From contig JAHPZA010000003.1 in the NCBI GenBank assembly GCA_019058445.1, forward strand, positions 64,001 to 128,000: DNA of 64,000 nt. The letters run 5' to 3'. Within the stretch, counting starts at the first letter, position 1. Every line of letters begins with the position of its first letter. Position numbers and translations under genes: made by a program. The notes under the pieces were generated by a model. It was not told the DNA's origin. It saw only the letters and a program-made list of their open reading frames with translations, and ran no database searches. Source of the stretch: Promethearchaeota archaeon (lineage in GTDB: Archaea; Asgardarchaeota; Lokiarchaeia; Sigyniarchaeales; SOKP01). Below are positions 11,124 through 29,681 of the stretch, piece after piece.

Positions 11124-11906
11124 TTATTTTTTAGCACTGATAAACAGTCTATCCAATTTAAGCTGTAATGGATTAGGTTGGTTTATTTCAAAAAGTAATG
11201 CTTTATATCTTTGAATAAACTCATCATGAAGGGATTTAGGCAATACAGCCGCAAATGGTACAAATCCGGCAGCTTTAAAATAATTAATCAAATCTGCATC
11301 ACTTTCAAATTCTACAGTGTACGGGTAGACTTCTACAAAGATTTCCTTAAATTTAACCCCCTTGAGTATTTTTTCAGTTTCTCTCTCAGTAAGGAAACGC
11401 CATGGAGGTTTAAAATTTTTTAAATAGTCCTTAAATTCTATGCCGACTTTGATTAACGCTTGGGAATATGCTGAAATCCGCTTTAAACCCGTCTGAATCA
11501 TGATTCTCCCGTTATTTTTAAGAGATTTGTAGATTAACTTATAAAGTAATTCTTGCTTTCTTATCCAATGAATAGCGCTATTAGAAAATACAGCATCAAA
11601 TTGGTTTTCATAATTCATTTTGATCGCATCTATGTTAACCACCTCAACATTTGTAATTCCGTGATCGTTAAGATTTTCTTTTGCTTGTTTGGTCATTTCT
11701 TTAGAGGATTCAAGTGCAATAATTTTCCCGTATGGTATTCTTTTTGCAAGTAACATAGTGAGAATTCCATTTCCACATCCGATTTCTAAAATATCCTCAT
11801 TATCTTCAGGAAGTAATTTTTCGATTACCCGTAGACCCAGCTCATATTGAACAGGAGAGTGTTTTTGATAGAATTTTGCGTCCCATTTAAGATCAATATC
11901 CTTCAT
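11124..11906 (-). CDS. Class I SAM-dependent methyltransferase (trans-aconitate MTase-like)
   Basis: WDAKFY, ILEIGCGNG, FDAVFSNSAIHW. ATG at 11906 is preferred. Confidence 0.85.
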   Translation of the reverse strand: MKDIDLKWDAKFYQKHSPVQYELGLRVIEKLLPEDNEDILEIGCGNGILTMLLAKRIPYGKIIALESSKEMTKQAKENLNDHGITNVEVVNIDAIKMNYENQFDAVFSNSAIHWIRKQELLYKLIYKSLKNNGRIMIQTGLKRISAYSQALIKVGIEFKDYLKNFKPPWRFLTERETEKILKGVKFKEIFVEVYPYTVEFESDADLINYFKAAGFVPFAAVLPKSLHDEFIQRYKALLFEINQPNPLQLKLDRLFISAKK

Positions 11907-12015
11907 AATAATATTAAATACCCGAATTTCTATAAATTTTATATAATTAAACAAAAATAGAAAAAGATTACAAAATTTAATAACCCACAATTTTAATTAT
12001 ATTAACAACATATCA

Positions 12016-12792
12016 ATGGTGAAAAAAGAAGTGGCAATAGATTACGAACAAGCAGTTAAAGATTTAAAAACGGAATCTGATATAAAGTCTGTAGCGGTTA
12101 TTGAAGGAAAATACAAAATCGTATATTCAACGGAAGATTGGGATATAAGTGGAGATATTAAGAAGCTTGTTGGAATTTGGGACTCAATGCATGGAAAGTC
12201 TTTAACGGTTTCTGAAAATAAATATTCAATCCTTCAAGCTACGCCGGAAAGATTAGTGGCAACTTCAATTAAAGGAAAAGGGCATATTTTGGGAGCTAAG
12301 GATGATGAAAGAAAGGTTATCGTTTATGCAAAACCAAAAGGGAATATGCTGACTGCTTATACTGCTGCTGCCAGAGCATTAGAAGCAATGAGCTCGAAAG
12401 AGCCTTATATGGATGAAAAGACAGAATTAGGAAATGTAGAAAAATTTCCTTCGGAATGGGATACTCCAAGATTAAGAGAAGAAATGATGAAAGGTCTCAT
12501 AGAGTTCTTTACAAAAGGCGGAAAACTTGAAAGAGTTGATGAGACTGATTTAAAGCGCAGAGAAAAAGAAAGAGGACAGAGAATGGAAGAATTAAGTAAA
12601 GTATTACATGCATTAGAAATAACCAAGGAAGAAAAAGATAAACTGGTAAGTATCACAATAAAATCGAAATTTGTTACTGATTACATCTATGATGATTTCC
12701 AACTGTTAAGAGTGAAACATAAAATTGAGAAACTCATTGAGAAAGAGTTTCAAGTGCATGATATTGAGACGAGAATTGTGAAAAAAATATAA
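12016..12792 (+). CDS. Asgard profilin domain with ~130-aa C-terminal extension
   Basis: VAVIEG..IVYSTEDWDISGDI...LTVSENKYSILQATPERLVATSIKGKGHIL matches the Loki profilin pattern (recalled) TENWxIS...KY...TxERxxxT.IxGKGH. Confidence 0.75.
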   Translation: MVKKEVAIDYEQAVKDLKTESDIKSVAVIEGKYKIVYSTEDWDISGDIKKLVGIWDSMHGKSLTVSENKYSILQATPERLVATSIKGKGHILGAKDDERKVIVYAKPKGNMLTAYTAAARALEAMSSKEPYMDEKTELGNVEKFPSEWDTPRLREEMMKGLIEFFTKGGKLERVDETDLKRREKERGQRMEELSKVLHALEITKEEKDKLVSITIKSKFVTDYIYDDFQLLRVKHKIEKLIEKEFQVHDIETRIVKKI

Positions 12793-12834
12793 GGTTACTA
12801 GTTTTTAAGTTAAAATTAAAGCCGAAACAGCAGA

Positions 12835-14268
12835 CTATTTTATTTTTTTAAGATTAGCAAAGTCTACAATATGTTTCGGTATTCTATAACTTGGACTTTT
12901 AATTTGAGCGGCACCACTTTCAATAGCTAATCTTGGCATGCCATACAAAATACATGTTTCTTGGGATTCGGCAATTGTTTTTCCTCCGATTCGTTTAATT
13001 GCCTCTAATCCATCGACACCATCCTCTCCCATACCGGTCAGTAAAATTCCCAAGGTTTTTTTTCGAAAGACTTTACAAGCAGAAAAGAATAACACGTCAA
13101 TTGAGGGAATACAATAATGCACTGGGTCACCTGAAAATATGTGGATACAAGGCTTATTATTTTTAACAAAAATTGACATGTGTCTGCCACCTGGTGCAAA
13201 ATAGACAATTCCTGGTTGAAGATACTCTCCTTCAATGCCTACCTTAATATGAATGGGACAAGTCTCATTTAAACTGCTAATGAAAGAATGAATAAATGGA
13301 TCGCTTAAATGTTGGACTACTAAAATTGGACATGAGATATTAGGAGGAATCTCCTTTAATACGGTTTTTAATGTTCGTGGACCGCCTACACTCGCTCCAA
13401 TAACAATTACATTAGATCCTAAATGAACCCCTTTTAATGGGGTTAGATCGGTTCTTTCTAATACTTTATTTCTTTTTATTTCTTTCTTTAAAATAGATTT
13501 TGATTTATGCGTTAAAGGATGAATTGCGTTTTCTGGTTTTTTGACTGAAATTTTTATCGAATGCTTTGCTTTTTCAGCTTTTGTTTCTTTAACTTCTTTT
13601 TGTTTGATTGATTCTTTAATTCCTTCCTTTTGTATCGACTTTTGCGCCTCAACTTTCTTAGTTTTTGGCTTTATTTTAACTTCTGTTGTTTCATTGGATT
13701 TTTTCACGCTGGTCAAGTCTAATTTATTGGTCTCCTCTGTTTCTAGTATAGGTTTTAATTCATTTATGTATTTACCAAATTTAAAAATCTCACTCACTAG
13801 CTCTTGTCGAATATAGGTCTTTTTAATTATGCTATTTTCTTTTTCAAATATTCTTTTAATTTGGGACTTCGAGGCTAGAAGAACTTTAGCAAGCAGTTCT
13901 TCTTTAAACCTTGGTAAATTTTTTGCTCCTAATCCTCCCGGTTTAATTACATAATCAAAGGCTCCCATTAATAACGCTTGGATTGAAGTATCCATAGTTT
14001 GAGGATTAACTGCTGATAAGATAATTGTCGGAGTAGGATTATAGTCCATTATTTTTTTAAAGGCATCAAGACCGTTCATTTCGGGCATAATTAAATCAAG
14101 GATTAATACATCTGGATGATGTTTTTTTACTAAATTTATTGCCTCTACTCCATTTTTTGCATAATCAGCAATTTTAATTGTTTCATCAATTGAAAGAATA
14201 TTTGTAATCGATTTTCTTAAAAACTCTGAATCATCAGCGATTATAACGCTTATTGTCTCACTACTCAT
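12835..14268 (-). CDS. cheB: Chemotaxis methylesterase CheB with long Lys-rich linker
   Basis: Receiver domain (ADDS, LDLIMP, KP) and methylesterase triad GASVGG / VQHL / GMGEDG. Confidence 0.92.
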   Translation of the reverse strand: MSSETISVIIADDSEFLRKSITNILSIDETIKIADYAKNGVEAINLVKKHHPDVLILDLIMPEMNGLDAFKKIMDYNPTPTIILSAVNPQTMDTSIQALLMGAFDYVIKPGGLGAKNLPRFKEELLAKVLLASKSQIKRIFEKENSIIKKTYIRQELVSEIFKFGKYINELKPILETEETNKLDLTSVKKSNETTEVKIKPKTKKVEAQKSIQKEGIKESIKQKEVKETKAEKAKHSIKISVKKPENAIHPLTHKSKSILKKEIKRNKVLERTDLTPLKGVHLGSNVIVIGASVGGPRTLKTVLKEIPPNISCPILVVQHLSDPFIHSFISSLNETCPIHIKVGIEGEYLQPGIVYFAPGGRHMSIFVKNNKPCIHIFSGDPVHYCIPSIDVLFFSACKVFRKKTLGILLTGMGEDGVDGLEAIKRIGGKTIAESQETCILYGMPRLAIESGAAQIKSPSYRIPKHIVDFANLKKIK

Positions 14269-14333
14269 ATTTTAGAAAACCTCTTTGTTCTTTATTTTTT
14301 TTCTTAATATTTTGTCCCTTACTTTAATGATAT

Positions 14334-15299
14334 TTATATCCCTAAATTTGATGTTAAACACATAAAAAGTTCATCTAAACCCTCTCCTGTCAAAGCGGAA
14401 GTTTCAAAAAATTGAAAGTTATATCGGTCAGCAAATTTGTAGGCATTGCTTCTGATTTCTTCTCTATTCTCTACTTTATCAATTTTATTCCCTACAATTA
14501 TGTAAAGGATCGAAGAATTTTTGATGAAATGGCGGGCTTCTTCAATCCACTCGTTAATCATTCCTAATGTTTCTTGTTTAGAATAATCGAATACAATTAG
14601 AACTGCCTTTGAGTGGTTATAGAAATGCCTACGTATCTTTGCAAAACTTTTTTTGCCTCCTAAGTCAAACAGTGAAAATGTTATTTTCATATCTTTCAAA
14701 ATTTGAAGTTCTTTTTCAATTATTGAAAGACCTATAGTAGGTTTATATTGCTCAATAAATTCACCATTAACAAACATGTTTGCTATGGCACTTTTGCCCA
14801 CATTATCTGGTCCAATTAGTACAATCTTATTTATTGAATTTTTACTATTAGAATGGTTGTTGGATTCTAGTTCTACGTTTCCGCCATTAACAAGATTAGG
14901 AAGTTTCGTCGAAATTTTTCGATCATTTAGAATTTGTGATGCTTTTTCTGCCACAATGTATGAATACGGGATAAATTTGTCAATATCAGAGTAAGCATCT
15001 GCTACTAATACAAATAATGCTCTAGTTGGTCCAACATTTCCCAGTTCTAAATAGAACAAACGATAGTCATTAGTATCAAATGTACCACTGCCATAAGATG
15101 TATCGGCGAATCTTTTAATTTTATTAAGAGCCCCTTCAAGGATGCTCATAATCGCTCCAATAATCTCTTCATTAAAATTTTTTACTGATTGGCGAGCAAT
15201 AATTAATCCATCCAAATCTACAATTAACGTAGCAATTAATTCATCAACTTTTTTCAAAAAATTGGCTAACAATTCTTCTAATAGCGTGACGCGCAACAT
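14334..15299 (-). CDS. Roadblock/LC7 domain fused to Rab-like small GTPase
   Basis: Roadblock N-terminus ATLIVDLDGLIIA...IIGAIMS. GTPase motifs G1 GPDNVGKS, YKPTIG, DLGGK, NKID, ETSAL. Confidence 0.88.
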   Translation of the reverse strand: MLRVTLLEELLANFLKKVDELIATLIVDLDGLIIARQSVKNFNEEIIGAIMSILEGALNKIKRFADTSYGSGTFDTNDYRLFYLELGNVGPTRALFVLVADAYSDIDKFIPYSYIVAEKASQILNDRKISTKLPNLVNGGNVELESNNHSNSKNSINKIVLIGPDNVGKSAIANMFVNGEFIEQYKPTIGLSIIEKELQILKDMKITFSLFDLGGKKSFAKIRRHFYNHSKAVLIVFDYSKQETLGMINEWIEEARHFIKNSSILYIIVGNKIDKVENREEIRSNAYKFADRYNFQFFETSALTGEGLDELFMCLTSNLGI

Positions 15300-15428
15300 T
15301 TTTAATTTATTCTAACTTTAAGTTAGAGAATTTATACTCAAAATCTTAATATTTTAGCTATTTTTAAACTCAATGATAAACAAAAATTTTTATAGCGATA
15401 GAACAACAATAAATTCCTTTCAAATCTA

Positions 15429-16610
15429 TTAAGCTCTAGAAAATTTTGACGCATATCTTACTATATAATCCTTAATGTGGTAATTTGGACTTATTATTTC
15501 GGCAAAACCATATTTGGCTGCAAATTTTGGCATTCCGTAGAGAATAGCTGTTTCTTCAGATTCTGCAATTGTAACCCCTCCCGATTTTTGAATTGCCCCC
15601 AATCCTTGAACTCCATCCTTACCCATTCCAGTTAACAAAATACCTAAAGTATTTTTATTGAATGCTTTTGCTGCCGAATAGAATAACACATCAATAGAAG
15701 GTTTACAAAAATTAACCGGTTCCCCATTAAAGATTCTGATTGTTGGAGATCTTAAGTTCCTATTTTTTACCATAATTTCCATGTGTTTGTCCCCTGGAGC
15801 AATATAAATATATCCAGATTTAATTATTTCACCATTATTTGGAATTTTTACTTTTAACTTGCACAAATCATTCATTGATTCAGCAAATTGATTCATAAAA
15901 AAGAGATTTAGATGTTGTACAATGAATATAGATCCTGGAAAATTTGAGGGAATTCCCTTCAAGATTGATTTTAAGGTTTTGGGACCACCTACACTGGATC
16001 CCATGACTATGATGCATGGTACCTCAGATCCACTCTTAACTTGCGGGATTTTAGATGCTTTTTCTTGAACAACTACTTTTAAATCATGATGATTTGTGAT
16101 TTTAATAGGGACTATTTTCTCTGAATTTAATTTTTTCTCTAAAATTTCTTTTTTAACCTTAATTTCTGAAGCTAAAAGCACTTTATTTATTAACTGCGTT
16201 TTAAATTTAGGAAATTCCTCTTTCCATACTCCAGTAGGTTTAATAATATAATCAAAAGCTCCCAATAGGAGGGTTTGAATCGAATCATTTAATGTTTTTG
16301 ACGCTTCAGAGGGATTGAGAGCAGAAAAAACGATTGTTGGCACGGGATAATGCTTTGAAAGATATCGATATAACGTAATTCCATCCATTTTAGGCATAAT
16401 TAGATCTAAAAGCAAAACATCTGGATTTGTTTTTTCAATTTTTTCGATGGCTTCTTCTCCATTTCTTGCGATATCAACTACTTCGATTTGAGGGTGTTCC
16501 GAAAGCATATCTGATAATATTTTTCTCTGATAAGAAGAGTCTTCTGCTATGAGGACTTTGACCTTCTTATGTGAACTATCCTCAGTTTTCATGTTCTTGA
16601 GAGCACTCAT
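15429..16610 (-). CDS. cheB: Chemotaxis methylesterase CheB
   Basis: Receiver domain (AEDS, LDLIMP, KP) and triad GSSVGG / VQHL / GMGKDG. Confidence 0.92.
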   Translation of the reverse strand: MSALKNMKTEDSSHKKVKVLIAEDSSYQRKILSDMLSEHPQIEVVDIARNGEEAIEKIEKTNPDVLLLDLIMPKMDGITLYRYLSKHYPVPTIVFSALNPSEASKTLNDSIQTLLLGAFDYIIKPTGVWKEEFPKFKTQLINKVLLASEIKVKKEILEKKLNSEKIVPIKITNHHDLKVVVQEKASKIPQVKSGSEVPCIIVMGSSVGGPKTLKSILKGIPSNFPGSIFIVQHLNLFFMNQFAESMNDLCKLKVKIPNNGEIIKSGYIYIAPGDKHMEIMVKNRNLRSPTIRIFNGEPVNFCKPSIDVLFYSAAKAFNKNTLGILLTGMGKDGVQGLGAIQKSGGVTIAESEETAILYGMPKFAAKYGFAEIISPNYHIKDYIVRYASKFSRA

Positions 16611-16677
16611 AAATGATTCTACTTTAGTCCTTTGAATACCTTAAAATTGATTAAAATAAATAGTTTTAAAACTATTT

Positions 16678-17067
16678 CTAGGCTTTGGCCATAGTGTGCC
16701 TTGTTAGAATTTGTTCCACTTGGTCCTTCTTGAAGGGTTTACGAATAAAATCCTTTGCGCCTAGTTGAGTCGCTTCAAGTATTAAATCCTGTTGGCCAAT
16801 TGCAGACACTACAATAATTGATGCTGTTTTATCAAAGTTTAGAATACCTTTAATGGCATCTAGTCCTCCTAGCTGTGGCATGATAAGATCCATAGTAACC
16901 AAATCTGGCTTTAATTTTTTATATAGTTCAATTGCTTCATTTCCATTTTTCGCTTCTGCAATGACTTCAGCAAAATTAGTGCCGTTTATAATGTTCTTAA
17001 GCATGGCTCTAGTGAATCCAGCATCATCAACAATTAATACCTTTTTTTTGTGATTCTCTTTAGACAT
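16678..17067 (-). CDS. cheY: Chemotaxis response regulator CheY
   Basis: Stand-alone receiver: VDDA, TMDLIMP, VSA, KPF. Confidence 0.9.
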   Translation of the reverse strand: MSKENHKKKVLIVDDAGFTRAMLKNIINGTNFAEVIAEAKNGNEAIELYKKLKPDLVTMDLIMPQLGGLDAIKGILNFDKTASIIVVSAIGQQDLILEATQLGAKDFIRKPFKKDQVEQILTRHTMAKA

Positions 17068-17159
17068 GTTAACATTCCCCTAATTTTTCATAAAATTTAT
17101 GATAGGTTAATTTGAAAAATTTTCGTACTTTTTGTGAGTTTAACTAAGACGTACTTTTA

Positions 17160-17208
17160 TATAATTTTGATAAAGTAAGTATTTAAAAAATTAATGAAAT
17201 GCAAAATA
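17160..17208 (-). promoter_or_regulatory. Duplicated promoter-like element upstream of cheY-cheB-GTPase-cheB
   Basis: 47/49 identical to 29012-29060. Contains TTTAAATA, a TATA-box-like sequence, on the minus strand. Confidence 0.7.
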
Positions 17209-17313
17209 GTTGCCCAGAATAACACAAAAAATTTGAAAAAAATTTGATTTAAATATTAATTCTATTTTGGATTTTGAGAGTTTAAGATCAGTAATCTTAT
17301 CTAAATTACTTAT

Positions 17314-17964
17314 CTATTTAATTTTAAGAAGGTCAAATATTATTTTAATAGTATCTATACTTGGAATAAAACAAATTATCCCATCTATACTTAATTCTTC
17401 AATTTTTATATTTGTGTTAATTATTATTATAGAATCTGTGAGCTCTGAATAATTTGCAGCCACTGAATTACATATTGCGCCAATTGAATCTAAAGCTAAA
17501 ACAGGAACATTAGGAATTAGTTTGATGCCCATTAAATTTGCTAATGAGCTTGCATAATGTCCCGCTAATATATTGCCGATTTCAGAAATGATACTCCTCG
17601 TCAAATCATCTAATTCCTCGATTTCGTGTATATCATCAATAGATATCTCAGAAATCGAATTGATCATGTTAATCATGGATTCTTTAGTAAAGATTTGTAG
17701 TACAGTTAAGTTATGCTTTCCTGTTATATTTGAACAAATTCCAAAGATATTAGTTTCTTGATCGGGAAAAATATTATTTAACTCCCAAAAAGGAATGATT
17801 TTAATGCCAGTTAAAGAAACTTCAACTCGCTTATTAACAAGTTCTGATAACGCAACAACAGCATTACCGGACCCAATATTTCCTAATTCTTTTAACGAAT
17901 CTAACTGCTCAGGACTCAATTTTATTGAGTTATTTACCCCTTCAAGACCTTCATTTAATTTCAT
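17314..17964 (-). CDS. cheC: CheC-family CheY-P phosphatase
   Basis: Two E-x-x-N motifs: KELGNIGSGNA and SEIGNILAGHY. Confidence 0.9.
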   Translation of the reverse strand: MKLNEGLEGVNNSIKLSPEQLDSLKELGNIGSGNAVVALSELVNKRVEVSLTGIKIIPFWELNNIFPDQETNIFGICSNITGKHNLTVLQIFTKESMINMINSISEISIDDIHEIEELDDLTRSIISEIGNILAGHYASSLANLMGIKLIPNVPVLALDSIGAICNSVAANYSELTDSIIIINTNIKIEELSIDGIICFIPSIDTIKIIFDLLKIK

Positions 17965-17984
17965 ATTCTTTAAACCTCTAAATT

Positions 17985-18530
17985 TTAATTAATTTTTTTA
18001 GTAATTGTATCTTTGCTTGTTTTTATTTGGATTATATCATCGCCTATATTATATATGATTGTTCTCCCTTTTTTTCCTCCAACTTCCTCAAATAGAATTT
18101 TAATATTTAATGAGCTTAATACTTCTCTTGCGATTTTAATATTTTGCTTACCGATACAGTTAAATTCATTATCAAAAATAGTTGCACCTCCAATCATAAC
18201 TGCTTTTAAATTCTTTAATTTTGCTCCGCTCTGTATCATTTTGTCCACTAAATCTTTTATAGAAGTATTTACAAATTTATGAGGTAATTTTATCTGGGAA
18301 GCTTCTTTATTTTCAGAGGTCGGAAGTAAGACATGGGACATAGCATGTATATGATTTATCGAATCTGTTAACAGAATTGCGATACATGAGCCCAATCCAT
18401 ATATAGAAATCGTTTTGTAGTTTTTATATTTCTTACTCGAGTTTACTAATGCATAATGTGCGATGGGTAAAAAAATCTCTCCGTTTTGATTAGGTTTGAT
18501 TATGCGATCAATTCGTTCTTCATAAACCAT
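17985..18530 (-). CDS. cheD: Chemoreceptor glutamine deamidase CheD
   Basis: GLGSCIA (catalytic Cys), SHVLLP (His), IGGATIF, IGKQNI, EVGGKKGRTI. Confidence 0.9.
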   Translation of the reverse strand: MVYEERIDRIIKPNQNGEIFLPIAHYALVNSSKKYKNYKTISIYGLGSCIAILLTDSINHIHAMSHVLLPTSENKEASQIKLPHKFVNTSIKDLVDKMIQSGAKLKNLKAVMIGGATIFDNEFNCIGKQNIKIAREVLSSLNIKILFEEVGGKKGRTIIYNIGDDIIQIKTSKDTITKKIN

Positions 18531-18544
18531 AATGAATTAACTTT

Positions 18545-19444
18545 TTAACTTTTAATATAAAAATGATTCCTTCCATCAAGTAACTTGAGATTGAGATTGG
18601 AATTTAAAAGAGTTTCAGTTTTTCCAAGGACCAATAATCCGCCATTCGTTAATTTATCTTTTAAAATCTTTAATAGTTTCTCTCTAAAACCTCTATTTAT
18701 ATATATCAATAAATATCTACAAAAAATAACATCATACTTTTGAGATCTTTGATGTCCCTTTGTGACATCCTCTATGATAAAATCTACTTTTTTTTTAATA
18801 TCATTGCAAATTAAATATTTGGGTCCTAATCGATCATGAAATTTAGTAAAATATGCTAATTTATATCTCTCAGGAGTTTCTTTTAAAGCCTCTTCACTAT
18901 AGAATCCCATTCGTGCCATTTTAATAATATTACTATCAACATCAGAAGCAACTAGATCATAGGTAGGAAAATCATTGATTTCTTCCCTTAATTGCTCAAG
19001 CATCATAGCTAGAGAATAAGGTTCCTCGCCTGAGGCACATGCACATGACCAAATTTTCAACCCCTCCTCTTTATAAGCATAATCTCTGCGAATTTTGTCA
19101 TAAATAGAAAGCTTAGAGACATCAATATTATCAGAATAATTTTGAAATTTTCCATTTTTACAAGCAAGAATAATCTGACGAAGTTTTTCATAAATTTCGA
19201 TGTTTCTAAAGAAATAAGTATAATTTATAGTAAACCTGTCCAAAAACAATTCAATTTCTTGGGGATTTGATGAAATATAATCAAGATAACTTTGGTCGGT
19301 TGTCAAACCGACTCGAATCATTCGAGCTTTAATCCTTCTTTCAAGAAAATTCCTTCGATAACATTCAAACTCTATACCGGTTGAATCTTTCAATTTTTCT
19401 ATCAAATTGTTGATGGATTTAGGGTTAAATGCTATACTTTCCAT
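18545..19444 (-). CDS. cheR: Chemotaxis methyltransferase CheR
   Basis: TYFFRN, IWSCACASGEEPYSLAM, YDVIFCRYLLIY, GGLLVLGKTE. Confidence 0.92.
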   Translation of the reverse strand: MESIAFNPKSINNLIEKLKDSTGIEFECYRRNFLERRIKARMIRVGLTTDQSYLDYISSNPQEIELFLDRFTINYTYFFRNIEIYEKLRQIILACKNGKFQNYSDNIDVSKLSIYDKIRRDYAYKEEGLKIWSCACASGEEPYSLAMMLEQLREEINDFPTYDLVASDVDSNIIKMARMGFYSEEALKETPERYKLAYFTKFHDRLGPKYLICNDIKKKVDFIIEDVTKGHQRSQKYDVIFCRYLLIYINRGFREKLLKILKDKLTNGGLLVLGKTETLLNSNLNLKLLDGRNHFYIKS

Positions 19445-19467
19445 TGAATTCTCTTCCTTTAAGAATT

Positions 19468-20037
19468 TTAAAGATTTTTCAATAACTCCTCGAGTTGGCT
19501 AATCCTTTTATCTATATGTTGAATTGAATATTTCACATGAGAATGAATTTCTTTAATTTCATTTACGATATGTGAAATTTTAATATGAACACTTCTGTTT
19601 ATTTGGGGTTTTAAAGTGCTCATAGCTTTTGATTGTTGAACTTGAAGTAATTGAGAACCTAAATTATTTGAAGCGGTTGTTTTTGCGATCTGAGCTGAGT
19701 TGTTTTTTTGTCTAGATTCGCCAGGAAAACCATATCTTTCAGGACCTCTCTTGATTTCGCTTGATATATATTGAAATTCAATAGGTTCTCTTCCCTCTTT
19801 TATAACCTCATATTTAAAACCATTAAATTCTTTATTATTTTTGAGTTTGCCTGCCCAATTTGCGGCAATATATCTATGAAATAAACGAGATTGTAACCCT
19901 GCCCAAATCCAAATTAAATTTAATGGTTTATCTACAAACAAATATACACTATTAGTTTCAAAGAGCTTATCGGGATTTTTTGTGAGATTTTCACCGTTGA
20001 TTTTATATACATAATTAAAGTATTCGTTTTGTTGCAT
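19468..20037 (-). CDS. Single gelsolin-like domain protein with C-terminal coiled coil
   Basis: Gelsolin repeat signature SVYLFVD...IWIWAG...A..L...VIKEGREPIEF, then a Q/S/N-rich linker and a heptad-like tail. Confidence 0.8.
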   Translation of the reverse strand: MQQNEYFNYVYKINGENLTKNPDKLFETNSVYLFVDKPLNLIWIWAGLQSRLFHRYIAANWAGKLKNNKEFNGFKYEVIKEGREPIEFQYISSEIKRGPERYGFPGESRQKNNSAQIAKTTASNNLGSQLLQVQQSKAMSTLKPQINRSVHIKISHIVNEIKEIHSHVKYSIQHIDKRISQLEELLKNL

Positions 20038-20114
20038 ATCCCTTAGCCATTTTGATATTTTTTGTAAAAATTTGGATTATGTGGGAATTAAAAAAATATT
20101 CCCCATGTTTTTTT

Positions 20115-22025
20115 TTAAACTTCGTAAAATGTGGAGAGTGTATCTAATAATTCTTGTAAAGTCTCGAGTTCTGGAATAAAGAGAAAAGTGCCCTGAATCT
20201 CAAATTCTTTAATAATAACATTTGTAGTGATTACTAAAGAAAGTTCTTTCATCAATCCAATTTCTTCATTTAGGATTTTAAACAATTTCATGCCGGTATC
20301 TAAACTTATGTCCGGCGGCTCAGTCATCAATCTTATACTTAATAAATTCCCTAAAGCTGTAGTATAATGACTGGCTAATATATGACCGAGTTCTTTCATT
20401 GCATCAATATAAATTTCAGGAAAATCATTGATAGATTTCACGCTTCTTAAATCTATTTTTGCTTTTCCGTTATCACCTATTATGATAGAAGTCAAATTAG
20501 TGATGTCTGGTACTTTAAATAAAGTTAGAACTGTTGCTCTGGTTTTTCCTTGAACTCCACTCCAGGAGACAAATAATTTCATATTTTTCTTGCTCATTTT
20601 TTTGGCAAACTGATCAATAGAAACGACCTCTACTGAGGGAATATTGATATCTACTCGCTTATTTATCATTTTTGCTAAGGCGTTAGCAGCATTACCAGCA
20701 CCAATGTTTCCAACTTCTCTTAAAGCATCTTTCTGAATATCTGTAAGTTCTAAGTCAATGAATTTATCGAGCGCTCCTCCCGGTTTAACAGGTTCAACCT
20801 TATCATAGATATCTAATTTATTGAATAGACTTTTTATAGCTTTTAAGTCTGGTATATAGAAAAAGATACCATTCATCTGTAAATCAGTAACTTTAATTGC
20901 TGTTTTTATAATTACCACATATTCAGATTGCTCTTGAAGCTCTTTAGCTAAGAAATTTCCTAAATTGCCCGCATTGCTCATAGCAAATTCAGGAACATCA
21001 AAAATCATTTTTGTATTTAATAAATCTGCTAATGCTGAAGCATAATGTCCCGCGAGAATATTTCCAAATTCCGTGACTGTAGAAATAGCAAAATCATCTA
21101 AATCTTTTTTAGTTTTTACTTTATCCGGATTAATCTTTGACTTTTTGCCCGCTAGATCTGCTATTAATTTCATTAATGGAGTTAATTCAAACACTTGAAG
21201 TATTGTAGATAATGAAGGCTTTCTTATATGCGAAAATATTCCACAGACAACTTCTGACTCATTACCAAATTGACGAGGTAACTGTTCTAGAGAAATAATA
21301 CCAACATCCGTAAGATCTACATCTATTCGTTTATTTATTAATCTTGAAAGAGCTGTGACTGCATTTCCACTTCCAATGTTCCCTACCTCCTGTAGTGTAT
21401 CTTTTTGCATTTTGGTAAGCTTCACTATATCGTGAACTATCGGCTGATGTGGTTTATCACTTGAAGGGATTATAATATCTTCAGTTCTTATTCTAGCAGG
21501 AAGCTTTTCTGGGATATAACGCTCTGGTAATTGATTGATATCTTGAGAATTTCTCATTAATTGTTGATCAGGAGCTAATGGAACTATTAATGACTCAAGA
21601 TCTAAAACAACATATGTTTCCTCATCTAAGACTCCTACAGATCTAATGTATTTCATATCAATTTCAGTCTTGATAATCGCAGATTTATTCTGAAAAATTG
21701 AAATTGGGACTTCTCTCATGCTAATAACTGAATCCACATAGAGTGCAATATTAATATCCTGTAATTCTAATAAAACTAAGCGAGTATTTTTTGATAACTT
21801 TAAATGATCTCCATTTGAGTGAATCCTTTGTCCCATGGCTATTATTGTATAAATCTCCCCTCTAACATCAGCAATTCCCACAATTGATCTTTCTGCTAAA
21901 GGGATTGGAATAATTAATTCTGGAACATAAATTTCTCTTACATCTGTTATTTCAAGAAAATATATTCGATCATCTACATTAATTTCTACTAATTTTATTG
22001 TTTGTACATATTCGTTTTCTAACAT
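20115..22025 (-). CDS. CheW-CheC-CheC fusion protein
   Basis: N-terminal CheW (IPIP...IVGIADVRGEIYTII...ALYVDSV). Two CheC modules follow, with motifs EVGN, EFGN, EVGN and ELGH. Confidence 0.85.
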   Translation of the reverse strand: MLENEYVQTIKLVEINVDDRIYFLEITDVREIYVPELIIPIPLAERSIVGIADVRGEIYTIIAMGQRIHSNGDHLKLSKNTRLVLLELQDINIALYVDSVISMREVPISIFQNKSAIIKTEIDMKYIRSVGVLDEETYVVLDLESLIVPLAPDQQLMRNSQDINQLPERYIPEKLPARIRTEDIIIPSSDKPHQPIVHDIVKLTKMQKDTLQEVGNIGSGNAVTALSRLINKRIDVDLTDVGIISLEQLPRQFGNESEVVCGIFSHIRKPSLSTILQVFELTPLMKLIADLAGKKSKINPDKVKTKKDLDDFAISTVTEFGNILAGHYASALADLLNTKMIFDVPEFAMSNAGNLGNFLAKELQEQSEYVVIIKTAIKVTDLQMNGIFFYIPDLKAIKSLFNKLDIYDKVEPVKPGGALDKFIDLELTDIQKDALREVGNIGAGNAANALAKMINKRVDINIPSVEVVSIDQFAKKMSKKNMKLFVSWSGVQGKTRATVLTLFKVPDITNLTSIIIGDNGKAKIDLRSVKSINDFPEIYIDAMKELGHILASHYTTALGNLLSIRLMTEPPDISLDTGMKLFKILNEEIGLMKELSLVITTNVIIKEFEIQGTFLFIPELETLQELLDTLSTFYEV

Positions 22026-22050
22026 AGTAAATACTCTACCTCTTTAATTT

Positions 22051-22887
22051 TCAAATGTCATTTTTAATGATAATTCCTTTCCAAATGAGTTCTTTTTCCC
22101 TTTCTTCTTTAGAATGTTCAGAAAAAAAATCGGGTTGTTTAAATATTGAAATTTGACCCCCATTCGAGAATTCATACACATAATCTAGCATATCATCCAT
22201 ACTTGTGAAGTTAAAGCCTGCTATGCTCAATTCGGAATTGTTAACTATTAATAAATCCTCACTATTGAATAGGGTATATTCATCGTTAATTTCTAACCAT
22301 AATTCAGGAATTATCTCTTTTTTATCAATTGTAATTATATCATCCAGGGGTATATCCCGATACGTTTTATTTGTAGCAAAAATTATCTGGTCTGGAATAG
22401 TTTTAAGGAGTTTAGCAGTTTTATTAATCCCCTCTATTGCTTGAGTATATTTTTGTGAATCGAAGACATCATAGCACAAAACAAAAATAACTCCGCCTCC
22501 ATCTAATTTAGCTATTAAATCTACCACGTTTTCTGCATCTGAAGTTGGATTAATTTGTATATTCTCTACAAAAATATCACGAATATACTTAAAATATTGA
22601 TAAAATCTCCATTTCACTGCAGATTTATCATTTATCTCTCGACTAATGAAAGTCTGATAGAGATTTTGTAACTGCTTCTCTGATAGTTTTGAATAATCAG
22701 CGCTCGTGTCATAGTCATCCCCAATATTAACAAATTCATTTGATTTATTTGATTTTGATTTTTTCGCAACTTCATCTACATAAATCTTAAGTTCCTCTAT
22801 AGTAAATCCAGGCGCAATATATTCTACTAAATAAAGCAATCTCTTTTTGGATTTATCCTGTAATAAATCATAATATTGTATTGTCAT
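22051..22887 (-). CDS. Hypothetical acidic protein within the che operon
   Basis: 278-aa ORF, 25-31 bp from its neighbours. VDLIAK...IFVLC weakly resembles a restriction-endonuclease-like fold. Confidence 0.7.
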   Translation of the reverse strand: MTIQYYDLLQDKSKKRLLYLVEYIAPGFTIEELKIYVDEVAKKSKSNKSNEFVNIGDDYDTSADYSKLSEKQLQNLYQTFISREINDKSAVKWRFYQYFKYIRDIFVENIQINPTSDAENVVDLIAKLDGGGVIFVLCYDVFDSQKYTQAIEGINKTAKLLKTIPDQIIFATNKTYRDIPLDDIITIDKKEIIPELWLEINDEYTLFNSEDLLIVNNSELSIAGFNFTSMDDMLDYVYEFSNGGQISIFKQPDFFSEHSKEEREKELIWKGIIIKNDI

Positions 22888-22918
22888 TTTTTTTCTCCTT
22901 TATTTATTTAATATACAT

Positions 22919-24940
22919 TTAACCAAAGAAATATGATTCTAAATCAGAAATACTCATTTTTTCTTCTCCTTTATTTTTCAGATAGTACATAATTTCTTTT
23001 TCTTGATATGCTAACACATTTTTAATAGAGAATGAGATTATATACTCATTTTCTTCTTTAGATTTTGAAACTTTATTTTCGGTATTTGAAGATACTAATT
23101 CAAAGGTATCTGGTATTGTGTCTGTTATTAATACATCCTTTATTTCCACATTCGAATTATTTCTCATTGTAATACTTATCGCAAATTCATCTGCATCACG
23201 TCCAGGAAAGATTTCTTTTCCAATTGTCAGATTACGACGCTTATGTGTGACCTTTATCTTAGGTTTTTTCATGTCTGATAAGATATTTTTCACTACATAA
23301 TATTCAGGTATTTCGATTTCTGCCAGATTCTTGTTTTTTATATAATAACAGCTGACTTCTAACGGAAATTCATATGCTTTATTATAATCTGGAGTCATTG
23401 CCCGAATTGGATATGTCAGTTCTAATTGTCCATTTATCCCTATTAAATCCCTTATTTGATTATTCGTTAAATTTATAATTAATTCTAAAGCATGTTCCTT
23501 AGATGGATCATCATCTTGAGGTGTAATTTTGAGGGTAATATCATCTATTTTCATGTCTCCTGAAGAGTTTTTAAGCTTAATTTGTGCAAGATCAATAGGA
23601 GGCTTAAAATCTTCTGGAATTGTCTCATTAATTATAATACCTTTAATAGGAACAATGCCCGTATTATGAATAATAATTTTATTAAATAATTCTGATTCTT
23701 CAAATGACTTGATTTCTTTTTGAGAGATATCTTTTTCAAAATAAAATCCTATCACTTCAATTGTTGTATCTTCCACTTGTAAGCTTACATTAGTGTTTCT
23801 CTCAATAGCATAATCCAATGAATAAGTTAGCTTTCTTGAAAATTTAGGTTCATTCTCCTCATGAAGTTCCCATTTATTAGTATTAAATGTTTCACCAGGT
23901 CGTAAAATAACTTTATTTCCTTCCTTAGTCATATCTAAATCTACATATTTTGTAGATCTCGTTTTATCGGTAATTAAAACGTTTTTCAATTGCATAGTAA
24001 AATCACTATGATTCGCAAAGATAAATGAGCATTCCCATTGATTTGGTTCTGTTTCTTTCTCTTCCACATCTATGACATGCTTTGCGTGGGAATATGCTGA
24101 GAATTCTTTAATATCAGTTTCTGAGACAATATAATTTTCTAATTCATATGTCATAGTAATAATCCCCGTCCTAATCTGCTTATTTTTTTCTGGAATTATT
24201 TTAGCTATAATAATTACCTGTCTCTGTTCTCCAGGTTTTAATTCTCCTAAATTCCAAGATAATTTATTGTTTTTAATTTTTATATCTGCTTTCGAGTCGC
24301 TTGAACATTCTAAATCATAAAAATCCTTAGGAATTTCTTTTTCAGCATGAATATTTTTAATGATATAATTTGATTGATTATGTAAATCAATTAAAAATTT
24401 AACTGTATTTTCTTGACCAAATAACAAAATATATCGATCATCTTGACCAATCATAGGAATTTCTGTAAAATCCTTTACTGCTTTTATATCCTTATTAAGA
24501 ATCTCTATTGATTCATAAATCTTAAGAGGATCTGATAGATCATCTAAACTACTAATGTTGTATCTAATATTCTTATTAGTTTGTGGTTCAAATATCCCAA
24601 GACTCAACTCATTTTGAATATCTAAATTGGTATATTGAGAGCCTAAGATTTGAATGCGAGTATCCCACATTCGATCTTTATATGAATTATTTATTATTGA
24701 TACATTGCCATAGCCATTAGCAGATTTTCTTTGCATAGTATGATCATACTGAAATTCTAAAGTTTCCTCATTAACTATTGTAATTTCAGATATACTTTCT
24801 GCTGTTTTTGAAATTTGAACCTCATTTGTTTCATATTTTCCTAAGTGCTTTGTTTCTTCCATAAATTTGAGAGGTACTCCCAAAAAATTTGGACCGATTT
24901 TGGTCCTTAATTCAGTTTGATTAATGCATTTAAATCCCAT
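22919..24940 (-). CDS. Cytoplasmic multi-beta-sandwich (DUF11/Ig-like) protein
   Basis: Repeated N(T/S)G/S..I.(D/E)TIP..F modules and WNLGELKPGE. No signal peptide or TM segment. Confidence 0.6.
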   Translation of the reverse strand: MGFKCINQTELRTKIGPNFLGVPLKFMEETKHLGKYETNEVQISKTAESISEITIVNEETLEFQYDHTMQRKSANGYGNVSIINNSYKDRMWDTRIQILGSQYTNLDIQNELSLGIFEPQTNKNIRYNISSLDDLSDPLKIYESIEILNKDIKAVKDFTEIPMIGQDDRYILLFGQENTVKFLIDLHNQSNYIIKNIHAEKEIPKDFYDLECSSDSKADIKIKNNKLSWNLGELKPGEQRQVIIIAKIIPEKNKQIRTGIITMTYELENYIVSETDIKEFSAYSHAKHVIDVEEKETEPNQWECSFIFANHSDFTMQLKNVLITDKTRSTKYVDLDMTKEGNKVILRPGETFNTNKWELHEENEPKFSRKLTYSLDYAIERNTNVSLQVEDTTIEVIGFYFEKDISQKEIKSFEESELFNKIIIHNTGIVPIKGIIINETIPEDFKPPIDLAQIKLKNSSGDMKIDDITLKITPQDDDPSKEHALELIINLTNNQIRDLIGINGQLELTYPIRAMTPDYNKAYEFPLEVSCYYIKNKNLAEIEIPEYYVVKNILSDMKKPKIKVTHKRRNLTIGKEIFPGRDADEFAISITMRNNSNVEIKDVLITDTIPDTFELVSSNTENKVSKSKEENEYIISFSIKNVLAYQEKEIMYYLKNKGEEKMSISDLESYFFG

Positions 24941-24998
24941 GTTTATTTTGCTCCATTTGATTTATCTTTTATTTTTTATTACATATTTTTGACTAATT

Positions 24999-27089: not shown

Positions 27090-27121
27090 ATAATCCCCTT
27101 TATCATTCTTTTTCCATATAT

Positions 27122-27511
27122 TTATTTCTTATCTTTAATTTTTAGAATACGCTCCATAACTTCTACAATCTGTTCAGTTTTGAAAGGCTTTTGAATAAAA
27201 TCTTTAGCTCCTTTTTTTGCCGCTTCAAGTACTAAAGCTTCTTGACCTAAAGCAGATACAACCACGATGATCGCCTTTGGATCAACCTTTAAAAGATCTT
27301 CAATAGTTTCAATGCCTCCCTTTTCAGGCATTACAAGATCCATCGTGACCATATCTGGTTTTAATTTTTTGTATAGGGCAATCGCTTCTTTTCCATTTTT
27401 CGCTTCACCGACGACTTCACCGTAATTAGTTTTTGAAATTATATTCTTCAGAATATTTCGTGTAAATTGGGCGTCATCAACTACCAATATTTTACTTTTA
27501 TTATTTGACAT
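27122..27511 (-). CDS. cheY: Chemotaxis response regulator CheY
   Basis: VDDA, TMDLVMP, VSALGQ, KPF. Adjacent to cheA. Confidence 0.92.
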   Translation of the reverse strand: MSNNKSKILVVDDAQFTRNILKNIISKTNYGEVVGEAKNGKEAIALYKKLKPDMVTMDLVMPEKGGIETIEDLLKVDPKAIIVVVSALGQEALVLEAAKKGAKDFIQKPFKTEQIVEVMERILKIKDKK

Positions 27512-27538
27512 TTTTCTAACTCCTATTTTTGGTTAATA

Positions 27539-28063: not shown

Positions 28064-28121
28064 ATTTTTTTCTCCTAATCTTTTTTTTACGCATTACAAA
28101 CTTTTTTTTATCTAAATTTTC

Positions 28122-29162: not shown

Positions 29163-29681
29163 TTATTTCAATTCTTCCTCAAATACTTGAAAATCAGAAG
29201 AAGTGAATAAACAAAAAATTACTTCTTTAATCTGAGTATCTTTTGATAAATACTCTTTAGCGGTTGCAATCATTATTTTTGCACATCTCTCAATAGGATA
29301 CCCAAAAATCCCTGTAGAAATTGCTGGAAATGCAATCGATTTTAGCTCATGTTCATCCATTAATTTTAGACTATTTAGAGTGGCATTTTTCAATTTTTCA
29401 TCTTCATTCCCTTCCCCCATCCGTGGCCCTACCGCATGAATAACATGTTTCGCTTTTAATTCTCCCCCTGTAGTAATCACTGCTCCTCCAACAAATGTAG
29501 GGGATTTCTTATTACATTCTTCTTGAATTTTAGGGCCGCCTTTCCGGCGAATTGCTCCGGCTACACCGCCCCCCAAGATTAATTGCGCATTAGCCGCATT
29601 GACAATAGCATCAGTAGCCAATTCAGTAATATCTCCTTGGACCAACTTAATTTTTGAACTTTTTATTATTAATTCTTTCAT
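29163..29681 (-). CDS. Macro domain protein (MacroD/YmdB-like ADP-ribose hydrolase)
   Basis: GDIT, IVNAAN, GGGVAGAI, VIHAVGP, FPAISTGIFGYP. Confidence 0.92.
   Translation of the reverse strand: MKELIIKSSKIKLVQGDITELATDAIVNAANAQLILGGGVAGAIRRKGGPKIQEECNKKSPTFVGGAVITTGGELKAKHVIHAVGPRMGEGNEDEKLKNATLNSLKLMDEHELKSIAFPAISTGIFGYPIERCAKIMIATAKEYLSKDTQIKEVIFCLFTSSDFQVFEEELK

What the first reader, a model, noticed from the sequence alone, without database searches (positions are those of the whole stretch)
12016..12792. Profilin with a ~130-aa C-terminal extension abutting the che cluster
Seen: residues ~1-127 match the Asgard profilin pattern. They are followed by a charged helical and alpha/beta extension. 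The stop codon is 42 bp from the cheB stop, in convergent orientation. Canonical profilins are single-domain. Inference: a second actin regulator at this locus with an accessory regulatory domain, although convergent adjacency is weaker evidence than operon membership.
Basis: partly seen in the sequence, partly recalled or inferred. Interest (0 to 1): 0.7.

Follow-up and report, generated by a model that had tools for sequence, protein, structure and literature searches.

The report
Asgard profilin with conserved C-terminal add-on
This gene of a Loki-type Asgard archaeon encodes a genuine profilin (an actin-monomer binder) with a strongly conserved 130-residue tail whose core also occurs as free 50-residue proteins, and it lies beside the chemotaxis genes by accident of history, not by function.

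Summary
ORF 12016-12792 (+) encodes 258 aa. Residues ~6-127 are a real profilin: phmmer E=1e-10 to a solved Asgard profilin, and the 50 best Foldseek hits are all profilins, none roadblock or longin. The stop lies 42 bp from a convergent cheB.

The ~130-aa extension is real and under purifying selection. It has three parts:
- an SSKEPY junction;
- a very charged helix-turn-helix motif, the most conserved part of the protein;
- a ~50-aa alpha/beta tail with an invariant IYDDF.

The motif is homologous (hhalign 98.7%) to free 50-aa proteins found in most genomes of the family. It also occurs in tandem arrays. A profile of the mini-proteins ranks N-WASP tandem WH2 first in the PDB, but the statistics are weak and the Pfam WH2, thymosin and RPEL models do not match. 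A second, WH2-like actin contact is therefore a lead (~25%), not a result.

The che linkage is not supported:
- Relatives conserve a methyltransferase / profilin / Macro order with no che genes.
- One genome of the genus has the gene but no CheB; another has CheB but not the gene.
- A sibling contig keeps the gene intact beside a decayed che remnant.

The full fusion was found in only one genus among 400 Asgard genomes. The scan had already noted the mini-protein and the profilin-TrmB fusion on other DNA. This is a new variant of a known kind.

The parts
12016..12792 (+). Whole CDS (258 aa plus stop) of the extended profilin, P0001
   Evidence: About 50 full-length homologues. Purifying selection.
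12031..12396 (+). Profilin domain, residues ~6-127
   Evidence: phmmer E=1e-10 to 5zza_P. AF2 pLDDT ~80-86. Foldseek top 50 all profilins, TMt 0.88. Pfam PF00235 scores only 16.6 bits against a cut-off of 25.
12391..12462 (+). Junction: conserved S-S-K-E-P-Y-M (res 126-132, S126 and Y131 invariant), then a variable linker to residue 149
   Evidence: Alignment A1. The same junction occurs in the TrmB-fused paralogue. It is the least conserved segment, 47% pairwise identity, with pLDDT <50.
12463..12624 (+). Charged helix-turn-helix motif, residues 150-203 (helix, K-G-G-K-L-E-R-V-D turn, long K/R/E-rich helix ending in V-L-x-A-L)
   Evidence: Most conserved segment, 70% mean pairwise identity. 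hhalign probability 98.7%, E=2.4e-16 to the free 50-aa mini-proteins. The own-genome mini-ORF is hit at 1.7e-10. Tandem copies occur in P0064, P0066 and P0068.
12625..12789 (+). Tail, residues 204-258: strand, invariant I-Y-D-D-F, helix 227-245, terminal strand
   Evidence: Invariant columns I224 Y225 D226 D227 F228. pLDDT 75-87. No fold match. Found only behind profilin domains, in the P0001 family and P0064.
11907..12015 (.). Divergent intergenic region shared with the SAM-methyltransferase gene. An AT-rich TATA-like stretch (TTTAATTATATTA) lies ~15-27 nt before the ATG.
   Evidence: Read directly from the sequence. The methyltransferase start is inferred from the 260-aa orthologues. Promoter function was not tested.
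12793..12834 (.). 42-bp spacer between the two convergent stop codons
12835..28949 (-). Context only: che block (2 CheB, roadblock-GTPase, CheY, CheC, CheD, CheR, CheW-CheC, CheA, CheY, CheW and unknowns). It lies between the profilin gene and its usual neighbour.
   Evidence: Pfam. Absent at this position in relatives. Decayed in the sibling contig.
29163..29681 (-). Context only: Macro-domain gene. In relatives it is the conserved convergent neighbour, 10-19 bp from the profilin stop.
11124..11906 (-). Context only: class-I SAM methyltransferase, a conserved neighbour (divergent in the window, L002/L003 and L008; convergent in L009)

Best explanation
This is a lineage-specific, multi-part profilin of a Lokiarchaeia-type Asgard archaeon, and it is not a component of the che system. 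The N-terminal domain is an Asgard-type profilin. By homology to the solved Loki and Odin profilin-actin complexes, it most likely binds the barbed face of monomeric Lokiactin (inferred, not shown).

A conserved SSKEPY junction and a ~20-residue flexible linker tether the domain to a module that looks like a disordered peptide that folds on binding. The module is an amphipathic helix, a G-x-K-L-E-K-P/V-D turn, and a long charged helix with a short hydrophobic end. The same module exists as a free-standing 50-aa protein in most genomes of the family, and as tandem arrays elsewhere. It is therefore an independent binding unit that was captured by a profilin gene in one genus.

My favoured mechanism has two steps. 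First, the extension adds a second contact or valency to the profilin. Second, the IYDDF tail supplies self-association or targeting. The most specific version, at about 25%, is that the first helix plus L-x-K-V/P acts like a WH2 motif in the actin target-binding cleft, as the internal WH2-like helix of Leishmania profilin does, raising affinity or changing what the profilin-actin complex can feed.

Shown here: the fold, the conservation, the modular homology, the distribution, and the lack of che linkage. Inferred: actin binding by either part.
For: - Profilin identity.
- Extension under selection, and more conserved than the profilin domain.
- Motif homologous to free mini-proteins and to repeats: (1.7e-10), (98.7%).
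- Mini-protein present in about 39 of 49 genomes of the family.
- Complete extension found in only 5 of 400 Asgard genomes, all in one genus.
- The motif occurs four times in tandem behind another profilin domain (P0064) and about eleven times alone (P0066). Fusion to an actin binder and tandem arrays are the architectures typical of WH2 proteins (established knowledge).
- The mini-protein profile ranks N-WASP tandem WH2 (3m3n_W) first of 177,635 PDB sequences at E=0.0012, with a second N-WASP WH2 entry among the 8 hits. The mixed profile again ranks it first, at E=0.042.
- Precedent for a profilin and a WH2-like helix binding one actin: PMC10907219.
- All members are 'hypothetical protein, Promethearchaeota'.
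- Independence from che.
Against: - No test of actin binding was possible.
- Pfam WH2, Thymosin and RPEL models match neither the motif nor the mini-proteins.
- The N-WASP hit sums three near-identical repeats of 6-9 bits each. The single-WH2 entry scores only E=0.95.
- The profile built from the fusion family alone ranks eukaryotic ribosomal protein eS19 first (E=0.015), not WH2. Marginal hits on this short charged motif therefore disagree with one another.
- A simple WH2-like regular expression occurs 11-33 times by chance in the genome's six-frame ORFs.
- The residues invariant across all motif copies (L, D, R, E) extend beyond the WH2 consensus.
- The mini-protein gene sits between a GNAT acetyltransferase and Pelota, not near cytoskeletal genes.
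- P0001 itself is below the Pfam profilin cut-off.
Confidence: 0.55

Rival explanations
1. The extension never touches actin. It is a scaffold for self-association. The helix-turn-helix forms an alpha-hairpin or coiled coil and the IYDDF tail dimerises. The result is a bivalent or multivalent profilin, or a profilin anchored to some other structure.
For: - Conserved G-G, P and D residues are typical helix caps. The same local pattern occurs in a helix-turn-helix inside the globular protein eS19.
- The end of helix 2 has an a/d-type spacing, M-x-x-L-x-x-x-L-x-x-L.
- The first helix is far more hydrophobic in the fusion (L, M, M, L, I, F, F) than in the free mini-proteins, as if it packs against something in cis.
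- Tandem arrays could form helical-repeat rods.
- The C-terminal model matches only single long helices.
Against: - The free 50-aa form has too few hydrophobic residues for a stable fold.
- AF2 confidence for a hairpin is low, pLDDT ~45-70.
- This reading does not explain why the module is joined to profilin twice, in different copy numbers.
Confidence: 0.25
2. The profilin-like domain has been repurposed and no longer binds actin. It might act as a roadblock/longin-style platform for small GTPases or as a ligand sensor. The protein would then work in a pathway unrelated to the cytoskeleton.
For: - It belongs to a divergent 'long profilin' subfamily. Four of the six profilin-domain genes in this genome carry C-terminal modules, and only two are canonical.
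- It shares only 26-28% identity with characterised Asgard profilins and is below the Pfam cut-off.
- Profilin, roadblock and longin share a core fold (PMC10933270).
- Small-GTPase genes lie near several homologues.
Against: - The model has the profilin-specific strands in place of the long central helix and matches only profilins.
- The invariant residues (K69, L73, Q74, E78, R79, G93, D96) lie in the strand region that aligns to the K-Y-x-[IV] and G-x-G-H signatures of Asgard profilins crystallised with actin.
- The sister paralogue of the same subtype is fixed next to an actin gene.
- Small GTPases are everywhere in these genomes, so their proximity means little.
Confidence: 0.15
3. One reading: an actin regulator functionally wired to the neighbouring chemotaxis cluster.
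For: It lies 42 bp tail-to-tail with cheB. Other agents' notes say the che operon itself holds gelsolin-like and roadblock-GTPase genes (not tested by me).
Against: - The two genes are convergent, so they are not co-transcribed.
- Five more distant homologue contigs have no che genes beside the gene.
- The conserved order is methyltransferase / profilin / Macro.
- G032 has the gene but no CheB. G030 has CheB but not the gene.
- The sibling contig keeps the gene under purifying selection beside a decayed che remnant.
Confidence: 0.05

Closest known systems
Stand-alone Asgard profilins (Odin, Loki-1, Loki-2, Thor and Heimdall profilins: PDB 5zza, 5yed/5yee, 5zzb, 7pbh, 6yrr; Akil & Robinson 2018)
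   Same: Same fold and detectable sequence homology: E=1e-10, TMt 0.74-0.88. The strand signatures K-Y-x-[IV] and G-x-G-H are shared.
   Different: Those proteins are single-domain, 119-148 aa. This one is 258 aa, with a conserved junction, a motif and a tail. The only extensions in print are N-terminal and at most 25 aa (PMC8410842). Actin binding has not been tested here.
Trypanosomatid (Leishmania) profilin with an internal WH2-like helix (PMC10907219; PDB 8C47 as cited there)
   Same: One polypeptide combines a profilin with a short amphipathic helix that may reach the actin target-binding cleft. This is the best mechanistic precedent.
   Different: There the helix is an insertion inside the profilin fold, and it is shown by crystal structure and ITC. 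Here it is a C-terminal appendage on a flexible linker with an extra tail domain, nothing is shown experimentally, and there is no sequence relation.
WH2 / beta-thymosin motifs (Pfam PF02205, PF01290), e.g. the N-WASP tandem WH2 of PDB 3m3n
   Same: The pattern is a helix followed by G-x-x-L-x-K-V. The motif occurs as small free proteins, as tandem arrays and as fusions to actin binders. N-WASP WH2 is the top PDB hit of the mini-protein profile.
   Different: The Pfam models do not match. The archaeal motif is about 45 residues, with an obligatory conserved second helix (D, R, E and L invariant). The statistical support is weak and not reproduced with the fusion-family profile.
WH2-like linker (LRRV) in Thor 2DGel gelsolin (PMC7444086), and arcadin-2, a short helix that sequesters crenactin (PMC5173319)
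   Same: Both are archaeal precedents for short linear peptides that bind actin-family proteins.
   Different: There is no sequence relation. Those are a four-residue linker inside a gelsolin and a crenarchaeal peptide. Neither is fused to a profilin.
Profilin-TrmB winged-helix fusion beside a second actin gene (own genome C6:645470-646801; P0051-P0061)
   Same: The profilin subtype is the same (47% identity over 139 aa), including the SSKEPYM junction. This shows that the subtype is a platform onto which different C-terminal modules were added.
   Different: The C-terminal module is a DNA-binding domain, and its linkage to an actin gene is conserved. P0001 has no conserved cytoskeletal neighbour.

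Membership tests
Profilin (PF00235 / profilin fold) | Pfam model match above the gathering score | tested here: not met
   16.6 bits against a cut-off of 25. Family members P0016 and P0057 pass at 25.6 and 26.7 bits.
Profilin (PF00235 / profilin fold) | Significant sequence similarity to experimentally solved profilins | tested here: met
   phmmer E=1e-10 (5zza_P), 4.8e-9 (7pbh), 1.4e-7 (5yed), 8.8e-7 (5zzb)
Profilin (PF00235 / profilin fold) | Fold: N- and C-terminal helices on a beta sheet, with the profilin-specific extra strands replacing half of the central helix | tested here: met
   DSSP order H-E-E-H-E-E-E-E-E-H at pLDDT ~80-86. Foldseek top 50 are all profilins; 5zza_P TMt 0.88, rmsd 1.6 A. 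Topology criterion taken from PMC10933270.
Profilin (PF00235 / profilin fold) | Binds monomeric actin | not testable with these tools
   The one complex job was not folded by the tool. Biochemistry is needed.
Profilin (PF00235 / profilin fold) | Single-domain protein of ~120-150 aa | tested here: not met
   258 aa with a conserved 130-aa extension
Roadblock/LC7 or longin | Long central helix and a roadblock- or longin-type match by sequence or fold | tested here: not met
   No Robl_LC7 Pfam hit at E<=1. The short helix 48-57 is followed by strands. No roadblock or longin chain appears among the 50 best Foldseek hits.
WH2 domain (PF02205) | Match to the family model | tested here: not met
   No hit at E<=10 in the mini-proteins, the repeats or the P0001 C-terminus, nor anywhere in the genome
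WH2 domain (PF02205) | Consensus amphipathic helix followed by G-x-x-L-K-K-V/T | tested here: inconclusive
   Mini-proteins read L-x-x-x-I-K-K-G-V-x-L-x-K-V with these positions invariant. P0001 reads L-I-E-F-F-T-K-G-G-K-L-E-R-V. N-WASP tandem WH2 is the top PDB hit at E=0.0012 and 0.042, but from 3 repeats of 4-9 bits each. The fusion-family profile ranks eS19 first instead. The regular expression occurs 11-33 times by chance.
WH2 domain (PF02205) | [quoted passage not shown] | not testable with these tools
   (not folded)
Beta-thymosin (PF01290) / RPEL (PF02755) | Match to the family model | tested here: not met
   No relevant hit at E<=10
Che (chemotaxis) gene cluster | Conserved co-occurrence and gene linkage with che genes | tested here: not met

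The most novel reading that the evidence does not exclude
The ~45-residue motif is an archaeal counterpart of WH2/beta-thymosin, either a relative or a convergent equivalent. It would exist as a free 50-aa actin-monomer binder in most genomes of one Lokiarchaeial family, as tandem arrays that could nucleate filaments, and, in this gene, welded to a profilin. One chain would then clamp a Lokiactin monomer at two sites or bridge two monomers. That would place WH2-type actin control, so far known in archaea only as four-residue gelsolin linkers, in a prokaryote. It would also be the first natural profilin-WH2 tandem.
Probability: 0.25. Interest if true: 0.8.

Novelty: new variant of a known kind. 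Interest (0 to 1): 0.6.

Why it matters
Profilin is the textbook single-domain actin regulator, and the Asgard profilins in print are all stand-alone. This genome has six profilin-domain genes, and four of them carry C-terminal modules: this motif plus tail, a second helical module (two genes), and a TrmB DNA-binding domain. [quoted passage not shown]

If the extension contacts actin, it gives a simple, expressible system of 258 aa, plus a 50-aa free version, for asking how multi-site actin-monomer control arose. If it does not, it still identifies a new, strongly conserved peptide module with no known fold or function.

The work also removes a tempting but wrong piece of evidence from the 'che cluster wired to the cytoskeleton' idea. 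This profilin gene is only a neighbour of the che block.

Tried and rejected
1. Complex prediction with own Lokiactin (alignment A3) and the motif (A2 residues 20-82). The tool did not fold it, under its rule on eukaryote-like chains. The job was counted and gives no evidence either way.
2. Pfam WH2, Thymosin and RPEL against the mini-proteins, the repeats, the C-terminus and the whole genome: no relevant hit.
3. PDB profile search with the whole C-terminal alignment A2: only chance-level hits, calmodulin at 0.27 and eS19 at 0.68.
4. The motif-only family profile A6 ranks the eS19 N-terminus first, E=0.015. I read this as local helix-turn-helix mimicry, because in eS19 the two matching pieces are ~58 residues apart and lie inside a globular domain.
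5. VIA-align of the C-terminal model against 48,161 chains: best Z 4.4, all single long helices. The tail was barely tested, so this says nothing about its fold.
6. An RPEL-like reading of K-P-x-x-x-[DE]-[LI] was considered from memory. The spacing to the preceding L differs by one residue, the basic residue before P is not invariant, and the Pfam model is silent.
7. P0067 (1074 aa), a hit of the C-terminal profile, is a low-complexity repeat protein and was dropped. P0063 looks like a chimeric gene call.
8. Literature: no paper in the held library describes C-terminally extended or multidomain Asgard profilins. Ponlachantra et al. 2023 (BioEssays), which may bear on this, is not held.
9. The Pfam profilin model across the genome finds only one weak hit, so an HMM built from alignment A1 was used instead.

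Full report
**Observation.** The window has ~30% G+C. ORF 12016..12792 (+) encodes 258 aa from an ATG. Its stop lies exactly 42 bp from the stop of a convergent gene at 12835..14268 (-), which has a receiver domain plus a CheB methylesterase domain. Upstream, 109 bp separate the ORF from a divergent class-I SAM methyltransferase. An AT-rich TATA-like stretch lies ~15-27 nt before the ATG (read directly, not tested).

**The N-terminal half is a profilin.** The Pfam profilin model scores only 16.6 bits, below its cut-off of 25. A direct search of PDB sequences does find the four solved Asgard profilins: 5zza_P at E=1e-10, 7pbh at 4.8e-9, 5yed at 1.4e-7 and 5zzb at 8.8e-7. An AF2 model built on 28 family members folds residues 10-125 at pLDDT ~80-86 with the order H-E-E-H-E-E-E-E-E-H. 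Foldseek against the PDB returns only profilins in its 50 best rows. The first is 5zza_P, with target-normalised TM 0.88 and rmsd 1.6 A over 118 columns, followed by eukaryotic profilins. No roadblock or longin chain is listed. The model also has the extra strands that distinguish profilin from roadblock, according to PMC10933270.

**The extension is real, conserved and modular.**
- The word-indexed protein search found about 50 full-length homologues of 250-302 aa at 41-94% identity. All come from sediment metagenomes or Promethearchaeota MAGs, and all are annotated 'hypothetical'.
- In the 28-sequence alignment the extension has three parts. The first is the junction S-S-K-E-P-Y plus a variable linker. 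The second is the motif, residues 150-203, with consensus L-R-E-E-L-M-K-G-L-I-D-F-F-K-K-G-G-K-L-E-K-P-D-E-x-D-x-K-R-R-E-K-E-R-K-x-R-M-E-E-L-E-K-V-L-x-A-L. The third is a tail with an invariant I-Y-D-D-F.
- Mean pairwise identity is 70% for the motif, 60% for the profilin domain, 60% for the tail and 47% for the junction.
- Against the 91%-identical orthologue (83% nucleotide identity), synonymous codon differences outnumber non-synonymous ones in the motif (17:5) and the tail (21:4).
- AF2 predicts helix 151-167, a loop at K-G-G-K-L-E-R-V-D, helix 176-200, and then a more confident strand/helix/strand tail.

**The motif is an independent unit.**
- A profile of the extension, searched against 1.84 billion representative proteins, found only 13 proteins. 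Apart from the family itself these were:
  - 50-66-aa proteins that consist of the motif alone (P0069-P0072);
  - a 387-aa protein with a profilin domain, four tandem motifs and the same tail (P0064);
  - a 497-aa protein made of about eleven motifs (P0066);
  - a 188-aa protein with three motifs (P0068).
- The window's own genome encodes a 49-aa copy at C1:109614-109763 (E=1.7e-10).
- hhalign between the fusion-family motif and the mini-proteins gives 98.7% probability, E=2.4e-16.
- In a sample of 61 genomes of the class, mini-protein-type matches occur in about 39 of 49 genomes of the family. They lie in conserved synteny between a GNAT acetyltransferase and Pelota.
- The complete extension was found in only 5 of 400 Asgard genomes, all in the window's own genus.
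- The simplest history is that a family-wide mini-protein motif was captured by a profilin gene in one lineage.

**What the motif may do.**
- For:
  - The mini-protein profile ranks the N-WASP tandem-WH2 construct 3m3n_W first among 177,635 PDB sequences (E=0.0012), and lists a second N-WASP WH2 entry.
  - The mixed profile again ranks 3m3n_W first (E=0.042).
  - The architectures seen here (free small protein, tandem arrays, fusion to an actin binder) are those of WH2 and thymosin proteins.
  - Leishmania profilin shows that a profilin and a WH2-like helix can bind the same actin monomer (PMC10907219).
- Against:
  - The Pfam WH2, Thymosin and RPEL models are silent.
  - The 3m3n score is the sum of three near-identical repeats of 6-9 bits each, and a single WH2 scores E=0.95.
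  - The profile of the fusion family alone ranks the N-terminus of eukaryotic ribosomal protein eS19 first (E=0.015), so marginal hits on this short, charged motif are unstable.
  - A WH2-like regular expression occurs 11-33 times by chance in the genome.
  - The residues invariant in all copies (L, D, R, E) extend into a second helix that WH2 lacks.
- The planned co-fold with the genome's own Lokiactin was not folded by the tool.
- I put the WH2-like actin contact at about 25%. A scaffold or self-association role is a comparable rival. Loss of actin binding by the profilin domain is a lesser rival.

**The che linkage does not hold.**
- The window does carry a large che block at 12835-28949: two CheB, a roadblock-GTPase, CheY, CheC, CheD, CheR, CheW-CheC, CheA, CheY and CheW.
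- In relatives the conserved order is pyruvate-phosphate-dikinase-like gene, methyltransferase, profilin gene, then a convergent Macro gene 10-19 bp away. In the window that Macro gene is at 29163-29681, directly behind the che block.
- More distant homologues sit in unrelated contexts.
- Within the genus, G032 (98% complete) has the orthologue but no CheB at all. G030 (99% complete) has CheB but no orthologue.
- The 91%-identical sibling contig has, downstream of the profilin gene, only a CheY that is 79% identical to the window's and a 109-aa truncated CheB receiver. The che block decayed there while the profilin gene stayed intact.
- The adjacency is therefore lineage-specific, and the two genes are not co-transcribed because they converge.

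**Wider context.**
- An HMM of the profilin domain finds six profilin-domain genes in this 4.6-Mb genome:
  - two canonical genes, at C4:266508-266924 and C1:24705-25097;
  - this gene;
  - two genes with a different shared C-terminal helical module, at C7:30704-31318 and C9:123495-124208;
  - a ~430-aa profilin-TrmB winged-helix fusion at C6:645470-646801.
- The TrmB fusion shares the SSKEPYM junction. In every context examined it follows an actin paralogue and a conserved ~65-70-aa ORF.
- Earlier notes of this scan, read after my own analysis, had already described the WH2-like mini-protein and the profilin-TrmB cassette on other DNA and elsewhere in this genome. Their later checks also rated the WH2 likeness as weak.
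- Published surveys of Asgard profilins mention only N-terminal extensions of at most 25 aa (PMC8410842). I found no paper in the held library that describes C-terminally extended profilins.

**Verdict.** It is a new variant of a known kind. It is of moderate to high interest because it is cheap to test and bears on how actin regulation was elaborated in Asgard archaea.

Noticed in passing
own genome C6:645470-648231 (outside the window); L062:2593-5239, L063, L064:2734-5308: A profilin-TrmB winged-helix fusion (412-435 aa) has the same profilin subtype and the same SSKEPYM junction. It always follows an actin paralogue (84% identical to Lokiactin in this genome) and a conserved ~65-70-aa ORF (K-I-K-V-I-D-G-I-P...) on the same strand. 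This is a candidate actin-sensing regulator. The scan has already reported it elsewhere.
   Followed up: partly
own genome C1:109614-109763 (-); L049-L058: A 49-52-aa highly charged mini-protein (consensus P-x-D-K-E-L-x-E-E-I-K-K-G-V-S-L-E-K-V-D-E...) is present in about 39 of 49 sampled genomes of the family. It always lies between a GNAT acetyltransferase and Pelota. It carries no annotation in any source.
   Followed up: partly
own genome C7:30704-31318 and C9:123495-124208: Two more extended profilins (~200 and ~233 aa) share a different C-terminal helical module (I-D-P-x-L-K-x-E-I-E-x-F-L-x-W-I ... G-L-S-x-Y-I-x-Y-Y-L-x-Q-N). The C9 copy has a lysine-rich linker. Four of the six profilin-domain genes in the genome are therefore multi-part.
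   Followed up: no
L060:6001-7164 (P0064) and L061:6001-7494 (P0066): Two Promethearchaeota proteins carry the motif in tandem. P0064 has a profilin domain, four motifs and the IYDDF tail. P0066 has about eleven motifs with nothing else. Neither has cytoskeletal neighbours.
   Followed up: partly
L002:3104-3892 compared with window 15429-17067: The sibling contig keeps a CheY (79% identical) and a 109-aa receiver-only remnant that resembles the N-terminus of the window's second CheB. The rest of the che block is missing, so this is a decayed che locus.
   Followed up: partly
P0001 residues 155-186, compared with eukaryotic eS19 residues 13-44 (7oya_T2): There is an unexpected local likeness between L-I-D-F-F-K-K-G-G-K-L-E-K-P-D-E-x-D-I-K and F-L-K-K-S-G-K-L-K-V-P-D-W-V-D-I-V-K, plus V-L-Q-A-L-E later in both (E=0.015). 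It is probably helix-turn-helix mimicry, but it remains unexplained.
   Followed up: no
own genome C10:653495-654577 and C9:593898-595019: Two actin-family matches contain in-frame TAA stops (two and one). Similar single TAA stops appear in the corresponding paralogues of G058 and G055. These may be pseudogenes, alignment overhang, or something else.
   Followed up: no
window 19468-20037, 22051-22887 and 28122-28949 (-): Three che-block ORFs have no Pfam match at E<=1e-5. Earlier notes call the first a gelsolin-fold protein, and one of the others a longin. I did not test this.
   Followed up: no
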